IMG/VR virus record: IMGVR_UViG_3300037506_000199
Coordinates: 1-50,488 of that record
From: a virus
Taxonomy: Duplodnaviria; Caudoviricetes
Length of the DNA stretch: 50,488 nucleotides
Reading direction: 5' to 3' (one strand)
Below, piece by piece: positions 1,273 to 50,488 of the stretch (its first letter is position 1; the number at the start of each line of letters is the position of its first letter). A model generated the notes under the pieces. It searched no databases and was not told the origin of the DNA. It saw nothing but the letters and a program-made list of their open reading frames with translations. Position numbers and translations under genes: made by a program.

Positions 1273-1305
1273 GCGCTAACAGCGCCGCTCGCCGAGAGCT
1301 TTTTA

Positions 1306-1340: not shown

Positions 1341-1355
1341 ATAAGGAGAATTGCC

Positions 1356-1640: not shown

Positions 1641-1689
1641 AGTGCGATTGGAACCGACCGACTGACAATCACGACAAGGGGCAGTTAAA

Positions 1690-2460
1690 ATGGGCAGGCA
1701 CGGTAAATGGGGATGGCTGTGGGCCGTATCGATTGTAACGGCCCTAGCGGCTTCGCTGGCGAGCGCGGAGACGAAGCGGGTAGAAAGCCGCGATAGGCTC
1801 GTCGAGCTCGTTACGGAAGCCGCTGGGGCCGCTGACGTTGATTGGGAGGCCAGAGACCCGGTTGGGGCCTCCATGAAGACCTTCCGATGTACCGATGGGA
1901 CTACCCGCGCGGTAATCTGGGTAAGCGGCCCCGGCGCGGTGGTCGTCTCGGATGTCATTGACTGGGACGCCCGGCAGCGGATTAAAACCCAGTGGATCGT
2001 GACCATTGTTGGTTCTGATCCACCCCCTGCTCCGGGACCGTCCCCACCTCCTGCTCCGGGACCGTCTCCACCAGCACCAGATGCTGCTCCTTTTCCAGCT
2101 CCAGGACTGACTGTCGTGATCGTGGGCGAGTTTTCCGATGACAATGCGGTGCGGTCTATGCCGGCATCCCAGTTGGCAATCTTCAACAGTGCGCAAGTGC
2201 TGCGGTGGTGCGTCGAGCATTGTTTTCGTCATGGCAATAGTGATATTGCGTTTCGCAGATGGGATGATGATTACACCGATACCGATCTGCATGTCGTGCC
2301 ACCCTTTCTGAAGCAGGCTTATGTGACCACTAAGCAGGCACGAAAAAATGAGCCGGAACCATGGATTGGTATCAGTGACGGCAAGACGGGATACATAGGA
2401 CCATTGCCCAAAGATATTGCTGGTACGTTGGAGTTATTGGGCCAGTACGGAGGCAAATGA
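1690..2460 (+). CDS. Secreted/membrane-anchored protein with Pro-rich linker; near-matched by CRISPR spacers 1 and 16
   Basis: N-terminal signal peptide (WLWAVSIVTALAASLASA), DPPPAPGPSPPPAPGPSPP linker between two domains. Confidence 0.8.
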   Translation: MGRHGKWGWLWAVSIVTALAASLASAETKRVESRDRLVELVTEAAGAADVDWEARDPVGASMKTFRCTDGTTRAVIWVSGPGAVVVSDVIDWDARQRIKTQWIVTIVGSDPPPAPGPSPPPAPGPSPPAPDAAPFPAPGLTVVIVGEFSDDNAVRSMPASQLAIFNSAQVLRWCVEHCFRHGNSDIAFRRWDDDYTDTDLHVVPPFLKQAYVTTKQARKNEPEPWIGISDGKTGYIGPLPKDIAGTLELLGQYGGK

Positions 2461-3230
2461 TGGCACGAATGATTAGCATCAATGACGTGAATTATCGCCA
2501 GTTCGTCAACCCGGTGATCAATGGCGAAACACGTGTCTGCAAAAGTTTCGGTATGTGGTTGCCGCGTTCACGCGGTGCCCCAAAGCCTTTTGAAGCCATG
2601 GGCATCCCAGTGTTGCCCGAATCGTCGTGGGACGAGCGCATTGAGGAACTCGAGCGCAACGAAGCCACGCTGCGACATTTATGCGATGGCATGGAATTGG
2701 AATGCCTGGACCAAAAGTCCACGTCATATTGCTGGGTGTTTGGTCCTACCATGTGTTGCATGATTACCCGTTTGCGGGAAACTGGCCGCGAATACCGTTT
2801 GTCGCCAGCTTCCGCTGGCGCGCCGATCAAAAATTTTCAGAATCGTGGTGGGTGGGGAGAGGAAGCGCTGAATTATTTCGTAAAGTATGGGTTGAACGAG
2901 CAGGCGGATTGGCCTGAGACAGCTATAGATCGCCGATATTACACGGATGAAAATCGGCGTAAGGCGCTGGCACATCGCGTGCTGGAGTATTATCGCATTG
3001 ACACCTGGTTACAAATGGGAAGCGTGATTTTGCATGGCATTCCGGTTTCCCCTGGGTATAACTGGTGGGCTCACCAAGTAACTGGAGTACATGTGCGCCG
3101 TGGCGACCATGCCCTGTTGATTCGCAATTCTTGGGGCAGGGACTGGTCGGATGATGGCTATGGCTGGTTGGAAGGCAACAAACGTTATCCCGATGGTTGC
3201 GTTGCCATTACTACCATGGCGGCGCTGTGA
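2457..3230 (+). CDS. Papain-like (C1 family) cysteine peptidase
   Basis: QKSTSYCW (oxyanion Gln, catalytic Cys), AHQV (His), IRNSWGRDWSDDGYGW (Asn motif). Confidence 0.85.
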   Translation: MMARMISINDVNYRQFVNPVINGETRVCKSFGMWLPRSRGAPKPFEAMGIPVLPESSWDERIEELERNEATLRHLCDGMELECLDQKSTSYCWVFGPTMCCMITRLRETGREYRLSPASAGAPIKNFQNRGGWGEEALNYFVKYGLNEQADWPETAIDRRYYTDENRRKALAHRVLEYYRIDTWLQMGSVILHGIPVSPGYNWWAHQVTGVHVRRGDHALLIRNSWGRDWSDDGYGWLEGNKRYPDGCVAITTMAAL

Positions 3231-3259
3231 TGCCTGTGCAATGACGTTGTAATTGCCAT
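3225..3259 (+). repeat. Solitary CRISPR-repeat-like unit (copy E)
   Basis: CTGTGATGCCTGTGCAATGACGTTGTAATTGCCAT, 21/35 to array repeat; spans peptidase stop and next start codon. Confidence 0.6.
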
Positions 3260-3446: not shown

Positions 3447-3721
3447 TGAAACATGTCTTCTGGTTACTGTTGTTATTGACCAGCACAACAAGTGTCATGG
3501 CGCAAACTTGCGGTTCGTCTTGAACGCCGTCGCAGCGCGCGAGTGTCGCGCCCAGAAGGCTGTTGCCGCGTTGGCAAAGCCGTCGCGCGGTTATGAGGAG
3601 TTCGCAGGTGATGCCGCAACGGATGACGCAGACCGTCCGTTTGGCGCCTGCAGTGCCGCAAGTGCAAAACCAAGTGACGAAGAACAAGCAGTTCGCTGTA
3701 TGGTTTGATGATTTGCACTAA
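3443..3721 (+). CDS. Putative secreted peptide with in-frame TGA at 3521 (candidate selenoprotein or nonsense allele)
   Basis: AAGGAG RBS; MMKHVFWLLLLLTSTTSVMA-QTCGSS-TGA, then the frame stays open to TAA 3719-3721; hairpin directly after the TGA. Confidence 0.5.
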
Positions 3722-3775: not shown

Positions 3776-4069
3776 ATGAAAATGGTGATTCGCGGTTTGT
3801 GTGTGTGCTGTGTATTGGTGGCCATGTCGCAATTGAAAAGCCATGGCGCAGGTATTGAGTTGTGTCGTTCCGACAGCGGTCACGATTGCATAGCCATTGG
3901 CTGTGGTACCGCGTGTGCAACAACACCGCATGATCACACTGCGTGCGCGATGACGTCGCATAATTGCACCGCGCGCAAGATGTCTCGGCACGAGCACGGC
4001 AAGGCAAAGTGGTGGAGTCGCGGGCCAGTGCGCAGAGGATTGCGCGCGTTACTGCGTGGCGGTTGCTGA
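3776..4069 (+). CDS. Small Cys-rich, probably secreted protein
   Basis: AAGGAG RBS, hydrophobic N-terminus, many Cys. Confidence 0.65.
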   Translation: MKMVIRGLCVCCVLVAMSQLKSHGAGIELCRSDSGHDCIAIGCGTACATTPHDHTACAMTSHNCTARKMSRHEHGKAKWWSRGPVRRGLRALLRGGC

Positions 4070-4411: not shown

Positions 4412-4465
4412 TTGACACGCTGTCCCCGATCGGTGATACTGCGGTCATGTCCGGCCTACATCGGG
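4412..4465 (+). promoter_or_regulatory. sigma70-type promoter with operator-like inverted repeat
   Basis: TTGACA-17-GATACT; CCCGATCG-N25-ACATCGGG straddling the -10 and predicted start site. Confidence 0.7.
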
Positions 4466-4500
4466 CCGGTGTACTCAGGCTACCTCACTGGAGAAATATC

Positions 4501-6744: not shown

Positions 6745-6773
6745 GTCATGTCTCCTAGTGCATAAGCTGCCTG

Positions 6774-6827
6774 CCCGATGTAGGCCGGCTATGTCCACAG
6801 TGTATCACATCGGGTGCAGCGCGTCAA
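6774..6827 (-). promoter_or_regulatory. sigma70-type promoter with operator-like inverted repeat
   Basis: TTGACG-17-TACACT; CCCGATGT-N25-ACATCGGG; shares CCGGCCTACATCGGGC with the promoter at 4412. Confidence 0.7.
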
Positions 6828-7360: not shown

Positions 7361-7395
7361 GTCATAATCACCAAGCCATTATGCAGGCATTGACG
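7361..7395 (-). CRISPR. Solitary near-perfect CRISPR repeat (copy F)
   Basis: Minus strand CGTCAATGCCTGCATAATGGCTTGGTGATTATGAC, 32/35 to array repeat. Confidence 0.9.
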
Positions 7396-7755
7396 GGGCC
7401 AGGCGCAGCAGGTGAGCAGGGACGGCCCCCTTACCCCCAGCGGCTAGCTGGTCTAAAAGGGGGGGGCCATTCGGACGGCCGCCGAGCCATTTATATTGGA
7501 GCCGCTCGGCATCACCCTTGGCTCCCGGACGATGGCCGTTGATGGGACGGCCTTACCGTTTATGGGATTTATTTATGCTCGCACCACCATCGAGCGCCAC
7601 CACCGGTACTACCGGTTGGTTCTGGGCTTTGTGGGTTTTGCGTGGCTCTTGCTTCATGGGGGTTCTTGGCCCCTCGGCCAGCGGCCGCGCTACGATAGCT
7701 GTTGCCGAACAGGCGGCTATGACCCGGGATGGGCGACTGCCTTCCGGGCGTGTCG

Positions 7756-7834
7756 GTTGCGAATACGCAGCCATTGCACAGGCATTAAGTCGCAATTACG
7801 TCACAATTACGAAGCCATTGCACAGGCAAAGAGA
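7756..7834 (-). repeat. Two adjacent CRISPR-repeat-like units (copies B 7800-7834 and A 7756-7790) plus a partial copy
   Basis: Both contain GCCTGTGCAATGGCT on the minus strand; 25/35 and 21/35 to array repeat. Confidence 0.7.
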
Positions 7835-7854
7835 AGCTGTACAGCAGCTTAGGT

Positions 7855-7883
7855 AGTATATAGGACGGCTGGAGTGAGTGCAA
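7855..7883 (-). promoter_or_regulatory. sigma70-type promoter directly upstream of repeat-like copy B
   Basis: TTGCAC-17-TATACT. Confidence 0.6.
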
Positions 7884-7886
7884 GAA

Positions 7887-8093
7887 TTATTGCAGATCGA
7901 GATTATTTTTGAGCCGGTCGTTAAGTTCCATGACCATGGCGATATTGGAGATGGCGTTTCCGAGTTGGGCGAAGGCGTAGTCTTTTAGCAGTTCGTCATC
8001 ATCGAGGCGTGCCAGGAGCCGGCTAACGGTTTTGAGGATTTGTTTGGTATCGAGTGGCCCGTCATGGGGCTCGTGGTTTAGGTTTTTTGACAT
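7887..8093 (-). CDS. Hypothetical protein (68 aa) flanked by repeat-like units
   Basis: MSKNLNHEPHDG...; helical, low-GC ORF between copies C and B. Confidence 0.6.
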   Translation of the reverse strand: MSKNLNHEPHDGPLDTKQILKTVSRLLARLDDDELLKDYAFAQLGNAISNIAMVMELNDRLKNNLDLQ

Positions 8094-8108
8094 AACCGTA
8101 TTACCGTG

Positions 8109-8143
8109 GTCGCAATTACGCAGCCATTGCACAGGCAAAGAGG
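8109..8143 (-). repeat. Solitary CRISPR-repeat-like unit (copy C)
   Basis: Minus strand CCTCTTTGCCTGTGCAATGGCTGCGTAATTGCGAC, 23/35; ends 15 nt before ATG 8093. Confidence 0.7.
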
Positions 8144-14818: not shown

Positions 14819-17800
14819 TGATGAGCATTACCCGTCCACATCATGCCCTTCCAGGCCAGCCGTACGGGTCTTTTGCTGGGCGTGGTAATGCTTATAACGC
14901 AACAGTGGCGGCAAATGGTCCGGGGGCCCAAGCCGCAATTGCTGCGACCAGTACGCCACCGGTGTTTACGGCGACGGTTGCCGCACAAACTCCGGGCGTA
15001 ACAGCAGCAGCAGCGGCGACGTACAGCCCGCCCGTGTTCACAGCAGTCGTGGGCGCTCAAGCACCGGGCGCGACAGCAGCGGCGACGGCAACATTCAGCC
15101 CGCCTGTGTTCTCGGCAGTCGTGGGCGCTCAAGCACCGGGCGCGACAGCAGCGGCGACGGCAACATTCAGCCCACCGGTATTCACGGCAACTGTTGGCGC
15201 TCAAGCACCGGGTGAAACAGCAGCAGCAGCGGCAACGTTCAGTCCGCCTGTGTTCACAGCAGTCGTGGGCGCTCAAGCACCGGGTGAAACAGCAGCGGCA
15301 ACGGCAACGTTCAGCCCACCGGTATTCACGGCAACTGTTGCCGCTCAAGCACCTGGCGTGACAGCCTCAGCAACGGCGACATTCACTCCAGCTGCTTTCA
15401 CGGCAACTGTTGCCGCGCAAGCACCAGGTGAAACAGCAGCAGCGACGGCAACATTCAGCCCGCCTGTGTTCACAGCAGTCGTGGGCGCTCAAGCACCGGG
15501 CGTGACAGCAGCGGCGACGGCAACATTCAGCCCACCGGTATTCACAGCAGTCGTAGCTGCTCAAGCGCCGGGTGAAACAGCAGCGGCAGCGGCAACATTC
15601 AGCCCACCGGTATTCACGGCAACTGTTGCCGCTCAAGCACCGGGTGTGACAGCAGCAGCAGCGGCAACGTTCAGTCCGCCTGTGTTCACAGCTGTCGTGG
15701 GCGCTCAAGCACCAGGCGTGACAGTTTCGGCGACCGCGACGTTCAGCCCACCCGTGTTTACGGCGGCTGTTGCCGCTCAAGCACCAGGTGAAACAGCAGC
15801 AGCTACGGCGACGTTCAGTATGCTATCTGTCGCCAATGTGGTGGCCGTTGCTCCAGGAGTTCAAGCGGCCATTATGGCAACGGTGGATAATCCACCAGTG
15901 CCAACAGGCACGGGCATGTTCCAGACAACGGCATTTTATCAGCGCGGAAACGCCGCTTTGAGTTTGGGACCATTTGCGTCCCCACCTGCTCCGGCGGTCG
16001 TGGCGCCACTTACAGGGGAAGCCATGACACGTGATCCGAATTTGTCTCGGTGGCGGGATATAGTGCTTGATCCGTGCAATCGCACGGCTCAGAACCGTAA
16101 TACCGCCGCGATTCGTGACGCGCTGGAAGCGATTGTGGATAACTTGCCGGAGGAACAACAACCAACGGAAACGGGCGGTGATGCGCTGATTTTCTTCCAG
16201 GTTAATGAAGATGCCGTTGGGGAAGCATTCACAGCCGTGACTGAAATGATCTATAACGGCACGACGGGTGAATGGGAACCAACTGGAGCCGCCTATACCG
16301 CTTATGATTGGACGCCATCGCAAGCTTGGAGAACTAACTTCCGTGGGGGATTTTTTGGTGTTGGTCGCATCAATACCAATGTGGCGGCGGATGCGCTCGA
16401 GGTGTTGGCCTTGGAAGGCTTGGCGCGTTTTATTGAGGTCACGCTTAATGAAAATATGGGCGCCACAACCAACAAGCAAGCGGAAGCTACCGTGCAAGTG
16501 TATTGGGGAGATGCCACGAATGGGCGCGATCCAGGCACCACGGTGATCATTCATGACGTTACGAACATGGCGCCGCAGCGGCTCCAGGACGAAAACGCTT
16601 TGGCGATATGGGATGATAAGCGAGGGGCGTATGTCATGATTGCGCCCTGGGATGGATTACAAGCGCCAGGACAGGCCGCAATCGTGAAGGTGCTCGGCGG
16701 CGATGCGAGCAAAGGTTGCAATGACAACGTTAAACCAGATCAGTTCTGCGTGCATACTGGAAAGGTGCAAAACATTTCACTGGCAGGAGAGTTCTGTACG
16801 GAAAAGTTTACCGACGGGGCGCCTGTGTGGATTCTGGATGCCAGAAGTTGTCACACGAATAACCGTTTGAATATGCACGAAAGATACGTGGCGGTGTCCA
16901 TGGGGCTGACATGGGACCCAGATCCCAATGGGCCGGATACCGACGAGCGATATTTGTACGTGGTTGTGGATTATGCACCGGCCTTGCGATGGTTCAAGAT
17001 TTTGAATGACGCGAGTACGTTGGCGTTTACCATTCCTGAAACCAACGAGCTGAAATGTCGTTCGCACGATTGCGGAGGACCACAACCGGACGACGCGCCA
17101 AGCACATGGGCCAAATGGGTCGATATCGATCCTTGCACGCGGCAAGAAACTACGCTGGACAACACACCTACCTTGATTTATTTCCCGATGCATCGCGCGC
17201 GATGCAAGGCGGTTGAAGAGCAAACCGAGGCGGAAAAATGCAAGAACGAAGACGCCAATCCCAAATGCCGACACGATAAATTTGTGTTGGCATTTTGGAA
17301 CCCCATCGCGGAACGCTGGGATGCTATGGCTGATGTGGGCGATTGCGCCCAGGACGAGGAAGTAGCGCTGATTATTGTTTGTGACGGGGAAGCCGATCCC
17401 GATTGTTGCGTGTTTGATGCCTTGAAAATATCGGTATATCCACGAGGTGATTCTTATTGTGATCCCGTCAAGGAACGCACTCCAGTCTGGGTCCGGTGCA
17501 CGAATGGACAATTGGCGTTAACAGATGGGTATTGCGAGCTGGGCGTGAAAATTTGCAATGCCTTTACTTGCAAAAATGAACGGCGACCCATGTACATGTT
17601 CCAATGTGGACAATGTGATGTATGTCGCTGTCCTGATTATGGGAGTCCAATTCGCTTCACGTTGCGCGTCGCCAACCCGGCTGGGCCGTGCGGATATTTG
17701 GATGGTATCTCGGGAGAGGCTCTGTGCTTGGACTCTAACCCGTTTATCAACAATCCACCCCCAGGTGCGGGATGGTACGCGGTATTTGATGTCGAGGGCG

Positions 17801-18854: not shown

Positions 18855-19144
18855 TCGTGTTGGCCTTGGCCGTGGCCCGAGTGACACGGCTAATGATGTA
18901 TGAACATGGACCCAAGGCGATTCTGTGGCATATCAGGAATCGTATTGGGGCACATGCAGAAACAGTACCAGCCGGAAGCTGGGCGGAATTATGGAATTGT
19001 CGATGGTGTTTAAGTTTTTGGGTATCTATTGTAATCGTGTTGTGTTTCTGGTGGTCCAGAACAGTCACAATCACTGTGTGTCTAGTGCTGGCCATCAATG
19101 TCATGGCAGCGATCATTGTCAAGTGGACCGAAGATGCGATGTGA
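18851..19144 (+). CDS. Small membrane protein (DUF1360-like)
   Basis: LAVARVTRL...GP...R...ELWNCRWCLSFWV pattern plus TM segments. Confidence 0.65.
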   Translation: MIVLALAVARVTRLMMYEHGPKAILWHIRNRIGAHAETVPAGSWAELWNCRWCLSFWVSIVIVLCFWWSRTVTITVCLVLAINVMAAIIVKWTEDAM

Positions 19145-20835: not shown

Positions 20836-21855
20836 ATGCCGATTGTTGTGACTCACAATCCAGATATTGGTTTACTGGCACGAGCTGGGTACGTGGCAGG
20901 TTATGGCGAATTCTTGCAGCGGCAACAAGAATTAGCGCAGCGCGAACGCATGCAAGAGCGCGCGCTGGCCGCTAATATGTACAGCCAGCAAATAGCACAA
21001 AACGCTGCCATGGAACGCATGTTGGTGGGTGGTCAAATGGAAGCGGACCAACGTGCCTGGGCCATGGAACAAGAAATAAATGCGCGTCGTCAATTGGCAG
21101 AACTGGAAGCGCAAAATCGGCTGGATGTGTTGCAACAGCGCATGGAACGTGATCGGCAAAATAAATTGTTGGAACGTGAAACGGCGGGAAATGCGGATAT
21201 TGTAAAGTTTTTCACCAATCGAGCCGCACAACAAATCGATGATGTGAATGGGCTGTTGGCCGAAGGATATCAGTTCGAGGGTGACGGTGAAAAACAATGG
21301 CGAGATACGATGCAACAGATCGCTCGCTTGCAACAAGATCAGACGTTGAGCCCGATGGCAGCGGCACAGGCTATTTACAACAAAATGGCCGAAGCGACAT
21401 TGCCACGATTAAAGCCGCCGGCGCTACAAGATACGATTCCGGCAAGAATCGCCAAAATTGATACACCGGATGGGCCCGTGTGGGTGTCCCAAGCTCGTGA
21501 TTTGAGCACGATATACACGCCACATCCCAAAAAAGACATACAAACACCACCGGCGCAGATGAGCTATGCGGAATGGATCAATTCGAATCCAGCCGTGTGG
21601 AATCAAGCGGTCAAGATGGCGACAGAAGTATTGACAGTGCAGCCAGAAAAATACACCGAAATGAAAAATGACGAAAAAATAGAACACTTTCATCCAGGAA
21701 AAAAACCAACGCCGGATGAAATAGCGGATGCTGCCACGAAAATTCTGCGACGGATGTGGGAACAAGTACCTCGGGAAGTATCGCCAACGGCGCCATTGGT
21801 GGAAGGCTCTGTGCGACGATACGATGTACATACGGGACAATTATCGACACCATGA
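20836..21855 (+). CDS. Putative internal virion (ejection) coiled-coil protein
   Basis: Gln/Glu/Ala-rich helices. Confidence 0.6.
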   Translation: MPIVVTHNPDIGLLARAGYVAGYGEFLQRQQELAQRERMQERALAANMYSQQIAQNAAMERMLVGGQMEADQRAWAMEQEINARRQLAELEAQNRLDVLQQRMERDRQNKLLERETAGNADIVKFFTNRAAQQIDDVNGLLAEGYQFEGDGEKQWRDTMQQIARLQQDQTLSPMAAAQAIYNKMAEATLPRLKPPALQDTIPARIAKIDTPDGPVWVSQARDLSTIYTPHPKKDIQTPPAQMSYAEWINSNPAVWNQAVKMATEVLTVQPEKYTEMKNDEKIEHFHPGKKPTPDEIADAATKILRRMWEQVPREVSPTAPLVEGSVRRYDVHTGQLSTP

Positions 21856-24800
21856 AAACAGTGCAATTGTCTAACGGACGTGTCATGCAATACCCAGATG
21901 ACTGGGATTGGGACCGTATAAAAGCCGACTTGGATCGGCAATATCCAGAGGCAGGGCGCAAAAGCCAGTTAGCAACGGCTGCCGTTTCTGCTCAGTATCC
22001 GCAACCGAATGAAGCTGATATGTTCTCCATGGACAAGGGACCGCTGGACACGTATGGTCCCATGCGCGAAGGTTATGGGCGCACGGTTATGGCGCCACCA
22101 CAGGCAGCTGATCCGTTAACGGAGATGTATCGGCAACAACGGATCGAGGCGGGATTGGAACGGCTCAAATATGGCCGGGAGATTGGGTCAATTGAGTGGC
22201 CAAAATATGACGTTAAGGACATGTCGCCATTCGAGACGGCCGCCGTCGAGGCATTGAGTTTGCTGGGCAATCATGGCGAAGAACTCGATGCGCTGCCCGA
22301 GACATATTTAGGTCGTGCGGAAAACCCGCGACACGTGCGATTGGCTGCGTATCTCAAACGCATGCAAGAGCGGCAAGGCGATCCAGAAACGGATTGGGTG
22401 AATTATTTCGGCGAAAAAATGCCGTTGGCCTTGCCGGCCTTGATGGCGGGTAGTCCTCCCGCGGCGGCGGCGGGAGTATTGGCTTCCCCGATCGTGAAAA
22501 TCATGAATATGCGCCGGGTGCGTCATGCCGCCGAACGATACGTGCAAGACAAAGCATCCGACGAGGACTTGATCACGTTGGCCTTCGCGATTCGGGAACA
22601 GCAGCGGTTGTCGAAGCAGGGCATGCTTCGTCGAGCGCTGGATGTTAGCGCGGAAATGCCACAGTTTGCCACCGAAGTCATGGTGCCTTATTCCAAGGCG
22701 CTTGGTGCAGGTCGCATGGTGGGACAAGCCACTAGAAGCCTCCGAGCCGTGCCCGTGGCGGGACAGTTGCTACGCGGAACGGCCAAGTGGAGTGGCGCCG
22801 AGTTTGTCGGCAAGATGGCGGCTCGGGGCGCCGCCACAGCGGCCTGGAATCCTCAGCGCGTGCTGGAATTCGCGGAAGCCAGGCGATTGTATGAGAATGA
22901 AGACCAGACTAAGGCGCTGTTGAAGGGATTTGCCGATGCCACCATTGAGTATGGCTCGGAAACATTTGGACAATTACTGCCTCGTTCCACCGTGATCAAA
23001 GGGCTCACGAAATGGCTAAAAACCAAGGGCCGATTTGCCAACATGACACCATTCGAGTTTCGCAAGGCGATGAATCGGGCGGGTTTGCAAGGCGTGCTCA
23101 TGGAGATTGCTGAGGAACAGGTCGCCAGTCTGGCTCGTGGATTAACCGTTACGCCTGGTGATTTCGGTAAATGGTCAGCGAATACGTGGGGTGAGACCAT
23201 CGGCCAGTTGATGGAAGAATTTCTTGTTTTCTTGCCCTTGGCTGGTGTTGGCGCGATGGCCCAATTAGGAACCACGCGAAAAGAATGGTTGGCGATAGCA
23301 GAGGCACGCATGCAGGCGCGCGCGGCGAAGGAAGCCGAGCAGTATTTTGCTGAATTGGAAACAGCTGAACCAGCAGCTGAACCAGCAGCTGAACCAACAG
23401 CTGAACCAGCAGTAACGCCAACTGAGATACCGATCGAGACGCCAAGCGAAGCACCGAAGGAGCAACTTGCAGAAACTGGAGTTTTGGATCGCATTGATGT
23501 CACGCCAGAGGAAATTCTGGATCAGGCGCCCGGAATGGCCGAGCAATTGCTGGAGGCGGAGGAAACGTCGCTGCGCGGGCAAGTGAGTCGTAAGCAATTT
23601 GCGGATATTACTGGTATACGTAACCAAACATTCGAACAACATCCACGCGCCGGCGCTTATCGCCAATTGATTAGTGATACCGTGCAGCTAGCCCGCGCGC
23701 GGGCTGAACAGGCGCAAGTCGAGGCCACGACAGGCGCAGCGACACAAGTGGAGGAAAGCCAGTCGGTCAGCGACCAAGCCGCATCAAGCGAGTTAACACC
23801 CGAAGAAGTGCGGGAAGATATGGAGACTCTGTACAACCACTTGGCCGAGAAAATGGGGCACCCGCCAGTAGTGTCAAGGCAGCTACAACCACGGCATTAC
23901 AAAACCAAGCGTCTGGCACAGCGGCTGGGAGTGCAGGTGGAATTTTTTGAAGCATCTGAAGAACAAATAACACCCGACATTGCTGAGCAGGGGAGGGGTG
24001 TGACGTTGAAAAGAGGGCGATTGCTGATGTTGCCAGGACATCAGACAACGGCCCAAAACGAACAAGTCCTGTTGGCACATGAACTGGCACGTGCCGGCGA
24101 AAGGGACAGGGGATGGGAACAGTTTGATCCCGAGCTAATTACACAATACGAGAAAGTGAGACCTACCAGGACGCGAGCGCAACGAACGGCTTATTTGGCG
24201 AAAGATCCAGAAGAGAAGCGCCACGAAACTATGGCTAGCCTGATACATGAGTTTATGCAAAACCCGGATTTGCGCCGGCAGTTGTGGGCAGAGAATCGCG
24301 CGGCCTGGGATTATATCATGACGGGTTTGCGCCAAGCGGTCGGTGCCAAAAACGAATGGAGCAAAGCGACACAACAAATGCTTGATCTGTTTGTGGCGGA
24401 GCGGGGGGAATGGCAACAGCTCCAAGCTAAAATGGAAATTGACGCTGCCAATCGGCCCGAAGAGGAACCCAATGGGCAATGGGGCGCGGAGGAAGAGGAT
24501 AAAAAAAAAGCAAGCGTTGAACCAGATGCCAGTGGCCAGACCGGACCCATGGGAATGCCGCTTAAACGTCCACCAAGCACCGTCTTTACCATGGATATGC
24601 CAATGACATTGACGGGTCCGCCGCCTAAGCATCGCATCTGTACTGTGCCACAAATTTTTCGACAATTACATCGCATCGCCGCGGCGGTCGGATCAAATGC
24701 TCAATTTCGCTTTGGTCTCATGGGCCGATTAGGGAAAAGATTCAAAGGCTGGTACCATCCTGCGTTGGATACTGCTCGGTTGCGCGATGTGGGCGATATA

Positions 24801-27800
24801 CCGGCCGCTGCGCATGAATTAGGTCATGCAGTGGATTGGCATTACTTTGTCACTGGACCAATTGCAGGCAAGGCAGAGGACTTTGATGCGCAATGGCGAG
24901 CAAAACTTGGTAATGGGGCGGCCGATGAACTAGAGGCCGCTGGACATGCGCGCTACACGGACCTTTCCCGGCCACCTGCTGGTGGTTATCTGCGCGAAGG
25001 CTTTGCTGAATTCGTGCGTGTTTATTTAACCAATCCAGAGCAGCTGCCAACGTTGTTTCCCACGATGACGCCGTGGTTCGAAACACAGGCACAAGGTGCG
25101 TTGTTGAAGGAAATGCGGAAGGGGCAACGCATGATCACAGAGTATCGTACCAGTGGTGCTTGGGCGCGCGACGAAGCGGCGCGCGTCAATCCGCATAGCG
25201 CGCGTTATAAACTCCAGAAAATAACATCGTATTTCCGTAGCACGAAACTAATGGAGGACTGGATTGAGGTATTTTATCCGCTCAAGTTGATGGATGCCAT
25301 GGCGGACGAATACCGGCGCAAGCGTGGGCTGCCGCCACGAGCGTGGAATGAACGTCTCTACGAAACCGCGAAGTATACGCGCGGTATGGGTGCGTCATGG
25401 ACACATTTCGCCAAGCGATTCGGACCTATTGACATTGATGGCAAACCGATGGATGCACGGCCCTTGCAAGATGTCAGTCAGTACGTGCATTGGGATGAAG
25501 CGGAACATTTCAAGAAATACTTGGCGGCTTGTCGTACCCTGGCAAGGGCCGGACAACCTGTACAAATGCTGCATGAAAGCGAGGAACAGTTTGCCGAGCG
25601 AAGGAAGTTGGCTCAATCCTTGCCGGCTATCGCGACGCACATGGATGTAGCGGACGCGGCTCAACTAGTAAAAGACGCAGAAGCGTTTTTTGATCAACGA
25701 AAGGAGCTGCATCCACACGGCAAGGACGATCTTAGGGCGGCCGCTGAAATTTATTGGCGCTTTCGGAATGCTGTGCTGACGTATTGCGGTCAAGTTAGCG
25801 AAACCGCGCGAAGAGATATCGAGTTGGTACAACAACTCGATCCCGGCAACTATATTGGCATTGCGTTTCAGCCCGATGAAGAATTTGATCCACATATGCG
25901 CGGTGGCAAAGGGGGTAGTTCCGTGACCACTGGTGCAATCGTCAAGCGCCAGCGTGGCTATCGTGGACAGGTGACGGATTTGTTGGAAGCGTCCTTCAAG
26001 GCAATGCAGCGCCAAGTGGACTCGGCCTGGCGTATGCGATTGGCGGAACAAGTGGCTCGCATCGCCAGTGTGGATGACATTAGCGGCGTTGGTAAATGGA
26101 TCGAACCCGTGGAACGGGCGATGGAAATGAAATACAAGACCGTCAAGGAAGAACTGCTCAAGCGCATTCACAAAGATTTAGTCGTGCGGGATCAAGACGG
26201 CAATGTCATTGATACGCTGCCAAACATATTGGAGGAACTACATATTGGCAAAGCGAGTCTGGCGATTGATGATCACGTCAACCAAATGGTTGAATTTTGG
26301 GCACCGGCACGGGACTATCGGGGACACCGGCCAGTCGTAATTATCAACGTGCCCATCAAGGACGTGAATGGTAAGGTGATCGGCAAGGAACCAAAATGGT
26401 TTTATGTGAATCCCGCTTTGCATCGGATTTTGGTTAGTCCAGATGCCACATGGCATCCTTATGGCAATGCGTTCGTGGATGGCATGTTGGGTATCATGCG
26501 CGCGATTGCCAAGGTGTGGAAATTCAGCACAGTGGGCATTCGACCTGCCTTCAATTTAATTCGCAACCCGGTCAGGGATGTGCGCACATTCTTGTATCAA
26601 ACTACGGACAATAACCCAGCGCGTGCATTATGGTGTTGGGCACAAACACTGGGCAGTGAGACCTATCATTTGTTCACGGAGCAGCCATCGGATTTTCATC
26701 GACTGTTAATGATGTGCGGGGGTATTGCTGGACAGCCATTGACACAAGACGTGCAAGCCTTACGAACCGCGGCCCATGATATTTTTGGCAAGACGCGCGC
26801 CTATTATCTTGATTGGCACAACGTGGGCAAAATCCTCAAGGATGGCTTTTCGGAAGTTGTGGATAGATTGCAGTTTATGGAGCGCGTGCCGAGAATCGCA
26901 GAACTGAAAATGCGCGTGCAACGCTATAATCGCCATGGCATGCTGCGACAAACAGGGGAAGCGGCTTGGCAATTCGGTGATCCAACCACCTTGGAGATGT
27001 TGAAGGATTTGCGATTAGCATCCAGTGAGATCACCATTGATTTTCTAGCGGGAGGACGAATTACGCAAAGCTGGAATGCTTACATGCCATTTTTTAACGT
27101 GGCGTTCCAATCAAAACGCACGACATGGCGGGTATTTCATCGTGATCCACAGAGATTCATTAAGTATTTGAGCATTTATGCTGCTTATGTGTTGGGCATG
27201 TGGTATTTGCACAAGGATGATGAGGATTACAAGGAAGCGGACAATCGAAAATACTTGTACGATCATTTTTTCTTCACGAACCCGGTGACCGGTGAGCGCG
27301 AAGTGTTGATGCTGGCGCGGGATCACGAAATGGGCGTGATGCTGTCGATCCTTGAAGGCTTGGTGGACTCCACGTACCGCAGCATGATCGATAACGAACT
27401 TGATCCAGAGCCGTTCGTGAGGGCCATTGTAACTTATGCGAATTCCTCGTTGCCAAGTCTGGCACCACCGCTGGCGCTGGAAGTATGGGAACAGGGCCGG
27501 AACAAAGACAGTTGGACGGGACGCAAAATTGCTAGCGGGAAGGGGCCACCAGAACAACAATACACGGAATACACAACGGGGGCGGCCATTACCATGGGCC
27601 GCATTCTGGGCGTGTCGCCTGCGCGACTGGATCATGCGATTGAAGGATTATTCGGAGCCACGAGTGTGGACATCCTGCGTTTGTGGACCAACATGGTGGG
27701 CCAGAAACGGACCGTCAAGGATTTTGCTTTGAGCGATATTCCAGTGGCGGGAAGCTTGTTCAAAAAAGGCGGGGCGCTGGGTTATCGCCCGCGCAGTGTG

Positions 27801-28130
27801 GAACAAGTATGGGAAGAGCGCGATCGTGCCGAAGTGGCGCAATATGACGTGGAGCGACCAGAAACAGCACGGCAGCGACAACGCCGTTTGATGCTGTTTG
27901 ACGCCACGCGAGCACTGGCGGCCTATGATGCTGCCAAACGAGCGAGCAAAGAGCGCGATGTGCAACAACAACTCACGCGTGCGCAATATGAGCTGGCCAA
28001 AAAAGTGTTGGCGGATCTGAAGGAAATTGACCAGCGGCAGGCACCTGTGCCGCGCGAACGGATTGCGGCGGCGCGGCGGCAAGCGCAACGCATACAAAAA
28101 CAAGTAGCACAAGAAGCAGCACAACCATGA
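21852..28130 (+). CDS. Giant internal virion / polyvalent protein with zincin-like metallopeptidase motif and LPD38-like C-terminus
   Basis: ~2092 aa from MKTVQL; AAAHELGHAVD...REGFAEFVRVYL; C-terminal PFFNVAFQ...E.G.NKDSWTGR.I...SPARLDHAIEG.FG pattern. Confidence 0.65.
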   Translation: MKTVQLSNGRVMQYPDDWDWDRIKADLDRQYPEAGRKSQLATAAVSAQYPQPNEADMFSMDKGPLDTYGPMREGYGRTVMAPPQAADPLTEMYRQQRIEAGLERLKYGREIGSIEWPKYDVKDMSPFETAAVEALSLLGNHGEELDALPETYLGRAENPRHVRLAAYLKRMQERQGDPETDWVNYFGEKMPLALPALMAGSPPAAAAGVLASPIVKIMNMRRVRHAAERYVQDKASDEDLITLAFAIREQQRLSKQGMLRRALDVSAEMPQFATEVMVPYSKALGAGRMVGQATRSLRAVPVAGQLLRGTAKWSGAEFVGKMAARGAATAAWNPQRVLEFAEARRLYENEDQTKALLKGFADATIEYGSETFGQLLPRSTVIKGLTKWLKTKGRFANMTPFEFRKAMNRAGLQGVLMEIAEEQVASLARGLTVTPGDFGKWSANTWGETIGQLMEEFLVFLPLAGVGAMAQLGTTRKEWLAIAEARMQARAAKEAEQYFAELETAEPAAEPAAEPTAEPAVTPTEIPIETPSEAPKEQLAETGVLDRIDVTPEEILDQAPGMAEQLLEAEETSLRGQVSRKQFADITGIRNQTFEQHPRAGAYRQLISDTVQLARARAEQAQVEATTGAATQVEESQSVSDQAASSELTPEEVREDMETLYNHLAEKMGHPPVVSRQLQPRHYKTKRLAQRLGVQVEFFEASEEQITPDIAEQGRGVTLKRGRLLMLPGHQTTAQNEQVLLAHELARAGERDRGWEQFDPELITQYEKVRPTRTRAQRTAYLAKDPEEKRHETMASLIHEFMQNPDLRRQLWAENRAAWDYIMTGLRQAVGAKNEWSKATQQMLDLFVAERGEWQQLQAKMEIDAANRPEEEPNGQWGAEEEDKKKASVEPDASGQTGPMGMPLKRPPSTVFTMDMPMTLTGPPPKHRICTVPQIFRQLHRIAAAVGSNAQFRFGLMGRLGKRFKGWYHPALDTARLRDVGDIPAAAHELGHAVDWHYFVTGPIAGKAEDFDAQWRAKLGNGAADELEAAGHARYTDLSRPPAGGYLREGFAEFVRVYLTNPEQLPTLFPTMTPWFETQAQGALLKEMRKGQRMITEYRTSGAWARDEAARVNPHSARYKLQKITSYFRSTKLMEDWIEVFYPLKLMDAMADEYRRKRGLPPRAWNERLYETAKYTRGMGASWTHFAKRFGPIDIDGKPMDARPLQDVSQYVHWDEAEHFKKYLAACRTLARAGQPVQMLHESEEQFAERRKLAQSLPAIATHMDVADAAQLVKDAEAFFDQRKELHPHGKDDLRAAAEIYWRFRNAVLTYCGQVSETARRDIELVQQLDPGNYIGIAFQPDEEFDPHMRGGKGGSSVTTGAIVKRQRGYRGQVTDLLEASFKAMQRQVDSAWRMRLAEQVARIASVDDISGVGKWIEPVERAMEMKYKTVKEELLKRIHKDLVVRDQDGNVIDTLPNILEELHIGKASLAIDDHVNQMVEFWAPARDYRGHRPVVIINVPIKDVNGKVIGKEPKWFYVNPALHRILVSPDATWHPYGNAFVDGMLGIMRAIAKVWKFSTVGIRPAFNLIRNPVRDVRTFLYQTTDNNPARALWCWAQTLGSETYHLFTEQPSDFHRLLMMCGGIAGQPLTQDVQALRTAAHDIFGKTRAYYLDWHNVGKILKDGFSEVVDRLQFMERVPRIAELKMRVQRYNRHGMLRQTGEAAWQFGDPTTLEMLKDLRLASSEITIDFLAGGRITQSWNAYMPFFNVAFQSKRTTWRVFHRDPQRFIKYLSIYAAYVLGMWYLHKDDEDYKEADNRKYLYDHFFFTNPVTGEREVLMLARDHEMGVMLSILEGLVDSTYRSMIDNELDPEPFVRAIVTYANSSLPSLAPPLALEVWEQGRNKDSWTGRKIASGKGPPEQQYTEYTTGAAITMGRILGVSPARLDHAIEGLFGATSVDILRLWTNMVGQKRTVKDFALSDIPVAGSLFKKGGALGYRPRSVEQVWEERDRAEVAQYDVERPETARQRQRRLMLFDATRALAAYDAAKRASKERDVQQQLTRAQYELAKKVLADLKEIDQRQAPVPRERIAAARRQAQRIQKQVAQEAAQP

Positions 28131-46819: not shown

Positions 46820-48619
46820 ATGAAAAATTGGTGTTATCGTGCTTATGAGCCGACCAAGAATTTAGAACGAGTGAACGAACAATTGAGACTAGCGCACATC
46901 TACAGAAACAAGCTATGTGAGCTGGAACTGCAAAGACGCGAGGAAGTGGAGGCTTGTTGGCGCGAATGCTGCCCGGAATACATGGTCGCCAAAGACATGA
47001 TGGCCATGAAACAAGCGAAACTGGACGAGCTGTTTGCTAGCATTCGCAAACGAGCGCAAGCCAACAGAACGAAGGCAGCACCAATTGGCGAAGAACGCGC
47101 GTTGATACAGAAACTCAAAGTGGAAATGAAAACCAGTCGCCAGGAAGTCAAGGCGCTACTGGCTACTGCGAAACAACGACCCGATGTCGTACAACGCCTG
47201 ATGGAGCTGAGCGAAGCGCATAAACGTCGCTACCGAGCTGCTAGAGCTAGCAGCGGATTATTTTGGGGCACCTATTTGTTTGTCGAGGATAGCTGCAAGG
47301 ATTTTGGTCGCGGCGCCCCACCACAGTACCGTCGGTGGAATGGTACTGGTACCATCGCATGCCAGGTCCAGTATGGTTTACCAGTGGACGAATTGCTGCA
47401 AGGTCAGGATACTCGCGTGCGATTACACATATCGGCAGCATGTGAAGAAGCGTTGGCGACGCAAGGTAAGGCACATGGCAAGCGTGCTCGGAGCTACGTG
47501 GAGATGCGCATCGGTTCCGAAGGTAGGGCCCCCATATTCGCGACAATACCGATCCAGATGCATCGACCATTACCAGCAGGCGCCAAAATAAAATGGTGCT
47601 ATCTGGAAAAACGGCGGGTGGCGTCACAAGAACAATGGACCGTGCGATTAAGTATTGACGAGCCTCCGCGCATTCGCGCCACATGCGAAGAGCTGTGTTG
47701 TGTACACGTGGGATGGCGAGTGATGGAGGATGGGAGCCTACGTGTCGCCACGTGGCGAGGATCAGATGGCCAACAAGGACAAGTGATGATAGCACCAGAA
47801 CGTATCGCGCGACTGTGCTATTGTGATGAACTACGGAGCGTGCGCGATCACAATACCAACATGCACCGAACTATGCTTATCGAATGGCTCAAGTCGCATG
47901 AGCATCCGGAATGGCTGGGCGAACGCACTGCGACAATCGGACAGTGGCGCAGCCCGGCCAGAATGGCGGCGCTGGTATTGGCGTGGCGCGAACAAAGGTT
48001 TGCTAGCGACGAACAAATATATGTGCCATTGGAAGCATGGCGAAAACAAGACAAACATCTGTGGACGTGGCAAGAACATCAGCGGCGCAATTGTGTGTGC
48101 TGGCGTAATAACGAGTATCGCAACGTCGCCAAGACACTAGCAGCTCGCTATGGGCATATATGCATTATGGATTGCGAATGGGCTGAAATGCGCAAAAAGC
48201 CAGCAATTGGCGAAGAGGAAAAACAAACAACGGCTATGCGGTTCAATAGTTCGTTGGCGGCCGTAGCAACCCTGGAGCGATACTTGCGTGAGGCGTTCGG
48301 TACGGATTGCGAGTTGCACATAGACACGGCTGGCGTGACGCGACAATGCCATGCGTGCGGCGCTAACAATGAAGATATAGGAGTGACACGTATGGTCACA
48401 TGCTGTGGTTGCGGGCGCGAAATAGATATCGATCTCAACGCACTGGACAATATGGTTGCGAGAGCCAAGGTGGTGCACGCTACTCAGCCGCCACTCGCGA
48501 GCATTATGACACAACGAGTTAAAGCACATGGTAACAGCCGACCGCTATCGAAACGACAGGCTGGATTTCGCGCCGCTCGCAAAAGGCCGCGCAACCAGAA
48601 TCCGGACAACAGCTTATGA
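46820..48619 (+). CDS. cas12m: Type V-M CRISPR effector Cas12m-like (C2c4/V-U1), RuvC predicted inactive
   Basis: 599 aa adjacent to array; QLRLAH, GLFWGTY, RWNGTGTIACQVQ, VHVGWR (H296 at RuvC-I), QWRSPARMAAL, ICIMD (D451), CHAC/CCGC Zn finger, DIDLNA (D538); these parallel MmCas12m motifs as recalled from memory. Confidence 0.88.
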   Translation: MKNWCYRAYEPTKNLERVNEQLRLAHIYRNKLCELELQRREEVEACWRECCPEYMVAKDMMAMKQAKLDELFASIRKRAQANRTKAAPIGEERALIQKLKVEMKTSRQEVKALLATAKQRPDVVQRLMELSEAHKRRYRAARASSGLFWGTYLFVEDSCKDFGRGAPPQYRRWNGTGTIACQVQYGLPVDELLQGQDTRVRLHISAACEEALATQGKAHGKRARSYVEMRIGSEGRAPIFATIPIQMHRPLPAGAKIKWCYLEKRRVASQEQWTVRLSIDEPPRIRATCEELCCVHVGWRVMEDGSLRVATWRGSDGQQGQVMIAPERIARLCYCDELRSVRDHNTNMHRTMLIEWLKSHEHPEWLGERTATIGQWRSPARMAALVLAWREQRFASDEQIYVPLEAWRKQDKHLWTWQEHQRRNCVCWRNNEYRNVAKTLAARYGHICIMDCEWAEMRKKPAIGEEEKQTTAMRFNSSLAAVATLERYLREAFGTDCELHIDTAGVTRQCHACGANNEDIGVTRMVTCCGCGREIDIDLNALDNMVARAKVVHATQPPLASIMTQRVKAHGNSRPLSKRQAGFRAARKRPRNQNPDNSL

Positions 48620-48626
48620 GTGCCGC

Positions 48627-49842
48627 GTTCCATGCCTGCATAATGGCTTTGTGATTATGACCCACTCGCTTCGTCTCCGCGCTTGCCAGCGAAGCCGCTA
48701 GTTCCATGCCTGCATAATGGCTTTGTGATTATGACCGTCGCATCGGCGAAGACTGCCGACTTGCGATTGCCGGTTCCATGCCTGCATAATGGCTTTGTGA
48801 TTATGACGGCCTGAAGCCCGGCCGATGGCGCTGCCTGCGCTGCGACGTTCAATGCCTGCATAATGGCTTTGTGATTATGACGTGTGGACGGCGATCGTCG
48901 GGCCCTCGGGAGACAAAGTTCCATGCCTGCATAATGGCTTTGTGATTATGACCGGCTGGCACGCAGCCAGCACGCATCACGTCATAACGTTCAATGCCTG
49001 CATAATGGCTTTGTGATTATGACAACGCGATCTCGTAGCGCGCGATCTGCGCGTCCGTTCAATGCCTGCATAATGGCTTTGTGATTATGACTGGGGACTG
49101 TCCGCCCCGCGCGGACCGATCCCGTGCGTGCGTTCAATGCCTGCATAATGGCTTTGTGATTATGACTCGCTGGCGCTGGAAGCGTCGGCAAGACAACGCT
49201 CGTCGTTCAATGCCTGCATAATGGCTTTGTGATTATGACGCGGAGCACGCGACCCGCACGTTCAATGCCTGCATAATGGCTTTGTGATTATGACAGCCAG
49301 CACGGGATGTCCGATCCACGTCCGTTCAATGCCTGCATAATGGCTTTGTGATTATGACAGGTCGTCGTCCGTCGCCATACCAGCTCTGGGCCGCCGTTCA
49401 ATGCCTGCATAATGGCTTTGTGATTATGACGACTGCCCACGACGCAGAACGTTTAATGCCTGCATAATGGCTTTGTGATTATGACAACGTGAGAGCGTAC
49501 TGGACAACTCGCGTAGGCGCCCGTTCAATGCCTGCATAATGGCTTTGTAATTATGACCCCGCGCATACAGTCTATGTGGTTGCCAGTCGCTATACGTTCA
49601 ATGCCTGCATAATGGCTTTGTAATTATGACCCTGGAAGACATCCTCGAACTGCCAACTCTGCTTGACATGCAATGCCTGCATAATGGCTTTGTGATTATG
49701 ACATCTCCTGGTCCGGGACCGTCTCCACCAGCACCAGATGCGTGCAATGCCTGCATAATGGCTTTGTGATTATGACGACCTGCTGCGACTGTTGCTGTTA
49801 TGAGCGCGTCCAATGCTCGCGTCATGGTGTTGTGATTATGAC
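48627..49842 (+). CRISPR. CRISPR array, 18 repeats / 17 spacers (20-40 nt)
   Basis: Repeat GTTC(A/C)ATGCCTGCATAATGGCTTTGTGATTATGAC (35 nt; often preceded by C); degenerate terminal repeat 49808-49842 and TTT PAM at the spacer-1 match support plus-strand orientation. Confidence 0.98.
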
Positions 49843-49915: not shown

Positions 49916-50488
49916 ATGCCACGAATCAGAACGATCAAGCCAGACTTTTGCTGTCGAGAAGAGATTTGTGCCTGCTCCAAGGGTGCCAGGTTGCTTTACA
50001 TTCTGATGTGGATGCATTGCGATGATTATGGTAACCATCCAGCCAAATTCAATGCATTGCGATCGGCATGTTTTCCGCGCGATTCCGACGGGGTCGAACA
50101 AATAGGCAATTGGATTGCCGAGTTGGTAACACAGGGACTATTAGTAGAATACACAGGTCATGATGGCGAGCAATATTGGCATGTTGTCAACTGGGAGATG
50201 CTGCAAAAAATAGACCGCCCGAGCAAGCAACGTTACCCAAGCAATTCTGGCGGTAGTTCCAATGGGGGAGTGGCTCGAGGAGTAGTTGACGAGTACTCGA
50301 CGAGCCACCCCCCCATAGATACTACGCCTCAACAAAAAACACTCGACGAGTACTCGTCGAGCCACCCCCCCATAGGTACTGACACTCGACGAGTACACTC
50401 GTCGAGCCACCCCCCCATAGGTACTGACACTCGACGAGTACACTCGTCGAGCCACCCCCCCATAGGTACTGACACTCGACGAGTACAC
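49916..50488 (+). CDS. Phage replication initiator, N-terminal part (runs off window)
   Basis: MPRIRTIKPDF...ARLLYILMWMHCDDYGNHPA...FPRD...W...QKIDRPS, typical initiator N-terminus; open to window end (not in ORF track). Confidence 0.8.
   Translation, partial: MPRIRTIKPDFCCREEICACSKGARLLYILMWMHCDDYGNHPAKFNALRSACFPRDSDGVEQIGNWIAELVTQGLLVEYTGHDGEQYWHVVNWEMLQKIDRPSKQRYPSNSGGSSNGGVARGVVDEYSTSHPPIDTTPQQKTLDEYSSSHPPIGTDTRRVHSSSHPPIGTDTRRVHSSSHPPIGTDTRRVH
50354..50488 (+). repeat. 45-bp tandem repeat (3 copies, plus degenerate copy upstream), iteron-like
   Basis: TCGTCGAGCCACCCCCCCATAGGTACTGACACTCGACGAGTACAC with ACTCGACGAGT dyad. Confidence 0.9.

What the first reader, a model, noticed from the sequence alone, without database searches (positions are those of the whole stretch)
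48662..48700. Spacer 1 matches this phage's own gene with only synonymous mismatches and a TTT PAM
Seen: spacer 1 matches the minus strand of 1745-1783 at 36/39, flanked 5' by CTTT. The three mismatches (1761, 1779, 1782) are all third-codon synonymous in gene 1690-2460 (GCG/GCA, CGG/CGA, GTA/GTG), and two fall at PAM-proximal positions 2 and 5. Inference: the spacer came from a close relative under purifying selection, so this is kin-phage warfare, with seed mismatches providing self-discrimination. It also fixes array orientation and supports a TTN PAM.
Basis: partly seen in the sequence, partly recalled or inferred. Interest (0 to 1): 0.78.

Follow-up and report, generated by a model that had tools for sequence, protein, structure and literature searches.

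The report
Phage non-cutting Cas12m with near-self guides
A freshwater phage carries its own CRISPR array and a Cas12m protein predicted to bind DNA without cutting it; two guides almost match one of the phage's own genes, likely because they were taken from a rival phage sharing that gene, while mismatches next to the recognition motif would spare the phage itself.

Summary
Confirmed: spacer 1 matches minus-strand 1745-1783 at 36/39 behind TTT, with three synonymous mismatches at guide positions 2, 5 and 23. The effector is a Cas12m with two of three RuvC residues lost. Orientation and T-rich PAM gain independent support: spacer 2 has a TTT-flanked target in another freshwater run, and its peptide matches a primase-helicase of a tRNA-integrating element. 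A kin contig keeps the site and the TTT, and shows that the spacer's alleles fit a sister lineage. Spacer 16 hits the same gene (37/39, no TTN). No perfect target for spacer 1 was found. Only 2 of 17 spacers are near-self, and spacers are 66% GC against 54%, so kin conflict is one part of a wider anti-element array. Four of 10 Cas12m virus records with arrays hold near-self spacers; none has both TTN and an intact first 12 nt. Self-sparing virus spacers are known (SPV1/SPV2), and this scan noted a similar case on other DNA. New: target evidence for a phage-borne non-cutting Cas12m, and dispersed repeat copies in 5 of 10 records. Self-discrimination is inferred from another Cas12m, untested here.

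The parts
46820..48619 (+). cas12m (type V-M effector, 599 aa), RuvC positions H296-M450-D538, zinc finger C510/C513/C528/C531; predicted nuclease-dead
   Evidence: phmmer to solved Cas12m chains, E 1e-53 to 2e-32; alignment columns
48627..49842 (+). CRISPR array, 18 repeats of 35-36 nt, 17 spacers; begins 7 nt after the cas12m stop; last repeat degenerate (trailer end)
48662..48700 (+). spacer 1, near-self guide (likely the newest)
   Evidence: 36/39 to minus strand 1745-1783; 33/39 to kin contig L005
48736..48772 (+). spacer 2, guide against a Toprim-DUF3987 primase-helicase gene of the kind carried by integrative elements
   Evidence: target in run X2: 36 nt without mismatch, TTT flank, position-2 mismatch; 11-residue peptide identity to L263/L264 protein, Pfam, next to an integrase and tRNA-Leu
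49359..49395 (+). spacer 11, imperfect target in runs X1 and X2 (unidentified element, flank TCT)
   Evidence: 33 nt with 2-3 other letters
49703..49741 (+). spacer 16, second near-self guide
   Evidence: 37/39 to plus strand 2046-2084, flank CCC
1745..1783 (-). self near-protospacer of spacer 1; TTT PAM at 1784-1786; the only self site with TTN and 15 of the first 17 nt matched by an array spacer
2046..2084 (+). self near-protospacer of spacer 16, no TTN
1690..2460 (+). target gene, 256 aa, hydrophobic signal-peptide-like start (by eye), Pro-rich linker, no Pfam or PHROG family
2457..3230 (+). papain-family (C1) peptidase gene overlapping the target gene's stop; same order in kin contig L005
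   Evidence: PF00112 E 9e-7, over cut-off; 57% to L005
1306..1340 (+). dispersed degenerate repeat copy 15 nt before the start of ORF 1356-1640, upstream of the target operon
   Evidence: PWM score 47 against a shuffle maximum of 16 (this copy was one of the five seeds)
3225..3259 (+). dispersed degenerate repeat copy closing the block after the peptidase
   Evidence: PWM score 22, not a seed
7361..8143 (-). four dispersed repeat copies (7361-7395 near-perfect, 7756-7790, 7800-7834, 8109-8143); a further weak copy at 3826-3860

Best explanation
The phage encodes a type V-M CRISPR system whose Cas12m is predicted to bind DNA without cutting, and spacer 1 was likely acquired from a rival phage that shares the accessory gene at 1690-2460, so the guide would block that gene in the rival while the phage's own copy would escape through mismatches at guide positions 2 and 5. 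Steps: (1) cas12m and the array are likely co-transcribed and the repeats processed by Cas12m itself (known for other Cas12m; inferred here). (2) The complex would read a 5' TTN PAM and about 17 nt (PAM and orientation supported by three natural sites; guide length from other Cas12m). (3) Binding 77-93 nt into the gene would act as a transcription roadblock, polar on the overlapping peptidase gene (inferred). (4) Spacers would be gained in trans, as no cas1 is found (absence shown for this record; source unknown). (5) Self-sparing likely reflects a filter: guides with both a PAM and an intact seed against self are purged; the position-2 change looks derived in this phage, positions 5 and 23 in the donor. 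(6) The array is a general weapon against co-resident mobile elements, of which gene-sharing phages are one class.
For: Match and synonymy statistics. Cas12m homology and degenerate RuvC. Kin contig L005 has the same gene pair, the same peptide at the site, TTT PAM, the spacer allele at position 2 and the self alleles at 5 and 23; the self codon at position 2 is the rare one (15% against 53%). Independent TTT-flanked target of spacer 2 of an integrative-element gene type. Second spacer in the same gene. In 4 of 10 Cas12m virus records with arrays, 5 near-self spacers, none with TTN plus an intact first 12 nt; 7 of 10 mismatches lie in the first 12 nt, expected 3.3, p 0.014; 5 of 7 without spacer 1, p 0.039; non-self kin L005 2 of 6, expected 1.8. 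PmCas12m loses activity with single mismatches within 12 nt of the PAM, best guide 17 nt (passage); 17-bp heteroduplex (passage); Cas12m protects against phages by binding (section).
Against: No perfect protospacer for spacer 1 or 16 in IMG/VR, the metagenome scan (1 hit, 33/39), runs X1/X2, 15 Cas12m virus records, 46 terminase relatives or 401 genomes. L005 itself would escape (mismatches at 5, 11, 17). Polarity rests on one outgroup that differs from self at 5 of 13 third positions. PAMs of the other phages' effectors are unknown, so their 'no TTN' may not mean no PAM. The mismatch tolerance comes from another Cas12m in a human-cell reporter. The enrichment test is post hoc on 10 mismatches. 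Two hits in one 771-bp gene (1.5% of the genome) are also what selection for self-regulation would give.
Confidence: 0.62

Rival explanations
1. Self-acquisition then escape: spacers 1 and 16 were copied from this phage's own ancestor, and the phage's protospacers later changed until they were no longer silenced.
For: The position-2 self allele looks derived (rare codon; L005 agrees with the spacer). Both hits lie in a gene not found in 40 terminase relatives, where self-silencing would be survivable. No donor was found.
Against: At positions 5 and 23 self and the outgroup agree against the spacer, needing two convergent changes; position 23 lies outside the guide and gives no escape; the likely newest spacer has more mismatches (3) than the old one (2).
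Confidence: 0.15
2. Autoregulation: partial pairing lets the non-cutting Cas12m dampen the phage's own secreted-protein/peptidase operon, and the two guides are kept for that.
For: Two guides, at opposite ends of the array, hit one gene (1.5% of the genome); the TTT PAM is intact at site 1; the operon is bracketed by dispersed repeat copies; a non-cutting effector makes self-binding survivable; partial pairing regulates genes in other systems (passages).
Against: Mismatches at 2 and 5 (and 2 and 9 with no TTN) fall where PmCas12m tolerates none; the sites are in coding sequence, not a promoter; near-self spacers in three other phages hit unrelated genes without TTN.
Confidence: 0.1
3. Module capture: the gene block was taken from a phage that the array already targeted, or the cas12m-array cassette moved in from another phage; the near-match is a by-product and the guide is now inert.
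For: Both matches are confined to one block bracketed by repeat copies; the gene is patchy among relatives; codons 18-30 are 35/39 identical to L005 while later segments are 18-25/39, a mosaic pattern; neither cas12m nor the gene was found in the closest complete terminase relative.
Against: Spacer 1 sits at the likely newest end, implying recent contact with a donor; overlaps with the best explanation in all but current function.
Confidence: 0.11
4. The spacer mutated after acquisition, or is an assembly artefact.
For: All three changes are transitions; no listed contig of run X1 covers spacer 1.
Against: All-synonymous pattern p 0.03-0.05; one allele occurs in nature; exact shared runs are shorter than 31 nt; flanking repeats are intact.
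Confidence: 0.02

Closest known systems
CRISPR-Cas subtype V-M (Cas12m; GoCas12m PDB 8pm4, MmCas12m/Cas12m2 PDB 8hhl; PMC11013384, PMC10442227)
   Same: About 600 aa, clear homology, His at RuvC-I, zinc finger, adjacent array with 35-36 nt repeats, T-rich 5' PAM, no cas1 found.
   Different: Phage-borne; the RuvC-II position is Met, not Asp or Glu; natural targets include a gene the carrier shares; seven dispersed repeat copies elsewhere in the genome.
Virus-borne mini-CRISPR arrays of SPV1/SPV2 (PMC6858448; model in PMC7099407)
   Same: Spacers against related viruses, with the orthologous self loci carrying point mutations or deletions that prevent self-targeting; some spacers hit other elements.
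   Different: Those have 1-2 spacers, no cas genes and borrow a cutting host effector; here a 17-spacer array with its own predicted non-cutting effector, and the reciprocal donor was not found.
MvCas12m of myxophage MV-1 (bioRxiv 10.64898/2026.09.14.751636)
   Same: Phage-encoded Cas12m plus array, no adaptation genes.
   Different: MvCas12m keeps D-E-D and had no protospacer found; here the triad is degenerate and four spacers have matches.
Cas12r of Thermus Lalka phages (bioRxiv 10.64898/2026.04.20.719267)
   Same: Phage type V system whose spacers hit tRNA-integrating elements with primase and helicase genes, as spacer 2 appears to.
   Different: Different subtype and PAM (ARG), interference shown by experiment; no near-self spacer in the section read; Lalka phages encode integrases, none was found here.
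Solitary repeat units, Racr and crRNA-like RNAs (10.1101/2023.03.03.530964; PMC11656645; PMC10651486 seen as listing only)
   Same: Single repeat copies outside arrays in virus genomes.
   Different: Those mimic the host's repeat or target cas promoters; here the copies match the phage's own system, are several per genome, and no clear promoter target was found.

Membership tests
Type V-M (Cas12m) | Sequence homology to characterised Cas12m over the full length, about 600 aa | tested here: met
   599 aa; 5 solved sequences matched, titled Cas12m, Cas12m2, UnCas12m4a or (8pm4) transposase, best E 1e-53, residues 8-551
Type V-M (Cas12m) | RuvC triad canonical or degenerate (D-E-D, H-D-D, N-D-D reported) and zinc finger | tested here: met
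   H296, M450 (D451 adjacent), D538; two CxxC pairs. More degenerate than the reported H-D-D
Type V-M (Cas12m) | Adjacent CRISPR array with about 36-nt repeats | tested here: met
   18 repeats 7 nt after the stop; similar repeats beside related viral effectors; repeat fold weak, -6.2 kcal/mol
Type V-M (Cas12m) | 5' T-rich (or C-rich) PAM | tested here: met
   TTT before the spacer 1 site in self and L005 and before the spacer 2 target; TCT and CCC before the targets of spacers 11 and 16
Type V-M (Cas12m) | Binds dsDNA without cleavage; processes its own pre-crRNA; needs no tracrRNA | not testable with these tools
   Known for other members; needs biochemistry
Virus-borne mini-array (SPV type) | 1-2 spacers and no cas genes | tested here: not met
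   17 spacers and its own effector
Virus-borne mini-array (SPV type) | Repeat identical to a host CRISPR repeat | tested here: inconclusive
   No exact match of a degenerate repeat pattern in genome contigs and no array match in 401 genomes; host not identified
Virus-borne mini-array (SPV type) | Spacers match related viruses | tested here: inconclusive
   33/39 to kin contig L005; no perfect donor found
Virus-borne mini-array (SPV type) | Orthologous self locus altered so that self-targeting is avoided | tested here: met
   Mismatches at 2, 5 and at 2, 9 plus no TTN; the functional effect is inferred
Regulatory crRNA-like RNA (for the dispersed repeats) | Sequence after the repeat pairs with a PAM-flanked promoter in the locus | tested here: inconclusive
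   Of 8 such 17-mers, 6 score 10-11/17 like shuffles; one 14/17 is another repeat copy; one 14/17 at 19079-19095 is a mild outlier (14 reached by 1 of 300 shuffles, 25 guides tested)

The most novel reading that the evidence does not exclude
Phage-borne non-cutting Cas12m doubles as a genome-wide regulator of the phage itself: repeat copies placed before phage genes act as Cas12m processing or binding sites on mRNA (or mark genes captured as giant spacers), and near-self guides tune the accessory operon that those repeats bracket.
Probability: 0.12. Interest if true: 0.8.

Novelty: new variant of a known kind. Interest (0 to 1): 0.5.

Why it matters
Cas12m on phages was reported only recently and without targets. 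This locus gives natural targets, a PAM and a natural self/non-self pair differing at guide positions 2 and 5, so it makes directly testable whether a non-cutting effector can wage virus-virus conflict and how it spares its carrier. It also shows a wider set of viral Cas12m loci (16 found with one short pattern) with recurring near-self spacers and dispersed repeats. The principle of self-sparing virus spacers is already known, and the donor phage was not found, which caps the interest.

Tried and rejected
Exact and degenerate scans for the spacer 1 donor: none in viral contigs, one imperfect kin in metagenome contigs. Single-protein locus scans with the target gene, cas12m and the peptidase found nothing in viral contigs. 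Array against phage records gave only chance hits (E 1-5), none in plasmids, none in 46 terminase relatives (46 of 80 loci held; 50 given, 4 not held), none in 401 genomes of the phylum of G051 (only 2 candidates scored per genome). Repeat pattern absent from viral and genome collections. No variant letters at 1200-3300 in X1 or X2 contigs: contigs drop rare variants, so the within-population test stays open. No RNA holder listed. Seed-only self targets for the other spacers: none above shuffles. An age gradient of mismatches: not seen. A mechanism that alters spacer position 2: all four matched spacers mismatch there (post hoc p about 5e-4), but L005 matches spacer 1 at that position and near-self spacers of three other phages do not mismatch there, so it is left unexplained. 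Enrichment of dispersed repeats before genes: 6 of 21 (10 array-terminal repeats left out of 31 examined) have a start with a ribosome-binding motif within 40 nt, against 4.5-8% of random positions, but the background is not intergenic-matched, so enrichment is not claimed. The structure job for the target protein did not finish and the profile search of representatives did not run, so its fold and distant family stay open. Wu et al. 2022 (MmCas12m) is not held, so its mismatch data were not seen; no supplements were read.

Full report
Setting. The window is a whole virus record of 50,488 bases, 82% complete by CheckV, with terminase, head-tail adaptor, tail and replication-initiator genes. 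The initiator gene runs off the right end and appears to resume at the left, so the record is likely a circle cut inside a repeat. The two listed runs are freshwater metagenomes; X1 may be the source. Terminase relatives in genomes point to Planctomycetota as host: 15 of 27 loci by record title. This is an inference. No cas1 and no tyrosine integrase were found in the record, with controls ringing.

Observation. Confirmed as written: spacer 1 matches minus-strand 1745-1783 at 36/39 behind CTTT, mismatches at spacer positions 2, 5 and 23, all synonymous third positions of gene 1690-2460. Chance expectation of the match is about 2e-13; the chance that three random changes are all synonymous is 0.027-0.046. 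A second spacer, number 16, matches the plus strand of the same gene at 37/39 with mismatches at 2 and 9, both changing residues in a Pro-rich linker, behind CCC. The gene is 1.5% of the genome.

Effector. ORF 46820-48619 matches solved Cas12m chains over nearly its whole length. The RuvC positions are H296, M450 and D538; its closest homologues also have His and a non-acidic residue there. Characterised Cas12m proteins bind but do not cut DNA, process their own crRNA and block phages and plasmids (PMC11013384: passages and two sections). The heteroduplex is 17 bp (PMC10442227, passage). For PmCas12m, single mismatches within 12 nt of the PAM abolished activity in a human-cell reporter (bioRxiv 10.64898/2026.03.26.714355, passage). 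If that holds here, positions 2 and 5 protect the phage and position 23 is irrelevant.

Orientation and PAM. Laying the array on runs X1 and X2 gave non-self targets for two spacers. Spacer 2 matches an X2 contig over 36 nt without mismatch, with a loose end that reads TTT, then a match at position 1 and a mismatch at position 2. Spacer 11 matches contigs in both runs with 2-3 differences in 33 nt, behind TCT. With the degenerate last repeat at 49808-49842, this supports plus-strand transcription, a T-rich PAM and spacer 1 as the likely newest.

Where spacer 1 came from. A back-translated pattern found one metagenome contig, L005, with the same gene and the same downstream papain-family peptidase (46% and 57% identity). 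Residues 18-32 are invariant in all 5 aligned sequences, in proteins otherwise about 52% alike. L005 keeps the TTT and differs from the spacer at six third positions. At the three self mismatches it sides with the spacer at position 2 and with self at 5 and 23. The self codon at position 2 is the rare one (15% against 53%). The simplest reading is a donor lineage with its own changes at 5 and 23, plus one PAM-proximal change in this phage. One outgroup, differing from self at 5 of 13 third positions, makes this modest evidence. No perfect donor was found.

How much of the array is kin warfare. Only 2 of 17 spacers resemble self. Spacers average 66% GC against 54% for the genome. Spacer 2 encodes 11 residues identical to a Toprim-DUF3987 protein found in 1 of 401 genomes of the likely host phylum, followed by an integrase and tRNA-Leu; at DNA level that locus is only 28/37, so it names the gene type, not the target. 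This parallels Cas12r of Thermus phages (abstract and one section). The target gene of spacers 1 and 16 was not found in 40 terminase relatives (24 virus records, 16 genomes) nor in 401 genomes; these are distant or incomplete. So the rival likely shares an accessory module, and need not be a genome-wide twin.

Is this general. One short pattern from a Cas12m alignment gave 16 viral loci in 15 records searched (L010, a twin of L009, was left out). I fetched 13 of the 15 and defined repeats for 9 plus the window: 120 spacers, those under 25 nt not matched. At 80% identity or more, 4 of 10 records hold near-self spacers: 34/35 behind GGG, 31/35 behind TGC, 36/36 behind GGC, and the two here. None has TTN with an intact first 12 nt. 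Seven of 10 mismatches lie in the first 12 nt (expected 3.3, p 0.014; without spacer 1, 5 of 7, p 0.039), while non-self L005 has 2 of 6 (expected 1.8). The test is post hoc and small, and the other effectors' PAMs are unknown. For spacer 1 alone, one such mismatch is expected 71% of the time, so survivorship suffices.

Dispersed repeats. Seven degenerate repeat copies lie outside the array (scores 21-52 against a shuffle maximum of 16; four were PWM seeds). Two bracket the block that holds the target gene. Such copies occur in 5 of 10 records, several just before a ribosome-binding motif (6 of 21; background not intergenic-matched). No convincing promoter target was found. Their role is open: processing or binding sites on mRNA, effector sponges, or scars of gene capture. 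One literature search for this combination listed only SRU, Racr and crRNA-like RNA papers.

Comparison with what is known. Virus spacers against relatives, with mutated self loci, are described for SPV1/SPV2 (PMC6858448, passages) and modelled (PMC7099407, passages); phage arrays against other phages in PMC7162821 (passages). V-M is noted on plasmids and some prophages (PMC11656645, passages), Cas12m-like proteins on landfill viruses (PMC12607003, passages), and a 2026 preprint claims the first phage Cas12m, with no targets found (passages). In searches I saw no report of natural kin or near-self targets for a phage Cas12m; subscription journals and supplements were not searched.

Verdict. 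Real feature. A member of type V-M by every feature testable here; it works like SPV-type interviral spacers but is not a mini-array. New variant of a known kind, interest 0.5. The decisive step is a silencing assay of the self site against the perfect site.

Noticed in passing
window 1306-1340, 3225-3259 (+); 3826-3860, 7361-7395, 7756-7790, 7800-7834, 8109-8143 (-); also G006, G008, G011, G014: Dispersed degenerate copies of the Cas12m repeat, several just before genes; in G006 the first two repeats after cas12m enclose a 167-aa ORF, and G011 has clusters with very short spacers before genes.
   Followed up: partly
window 3443-3721 (+); L005 2138-2398 (+): A signal-peptide-like ORF has an in-frame TGA after about 26 codons in both this phage and the kin contig, each near a Cys; possible selenocysteine or readthrough, or two short peptides. 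No downstream fold above shuffles.
   Followed up: partly
window 4412-4469 and 6770-6827: 58-nt inverted repeat (78%) with sigma-70-like hexamers by eye, facing inward around a 62% GC block of small paralogous-looking ORFs; possible early-gene region.
   Followed up: no
spacers 1, 2, 11, 16: All four spacers with a natural match mismatch at position 2 (post hoc p about 5e-4); no mechanism found.
   Followed up: partly
window 49240-49259 and 49431-49450: Two 20-nt spacers among 29-40-nt ones; no target found.
   Followed up: partly
window 3809-3825 (-) against 19079-19095 (-): The 17 nt after the weakest dispersed repeat match a TTN-flanked site just before ORF 19098 at 14/17; borderline against shuffles.
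   Followed up: no
G014:C1:19251-19286: A perfect 36/36 self-matching spacer in a 179-kb Cas12m virus record, flanked by GGC rather than TTN; this record has three arrays and six solitary repeats.
   Followed up: partly
window 14827-15846; 1-216; 50295-50488: 72-nt tandem repeats in a 1253-aa ORF; 27-nt and 45-nt repeats inside the replication-initiator gene at the record's two ends.
   Followed up: no
window 21756-28130: 2124-aa protein with an LPD38 domain, typical of large polyvalent proteins.
   Followed up: no
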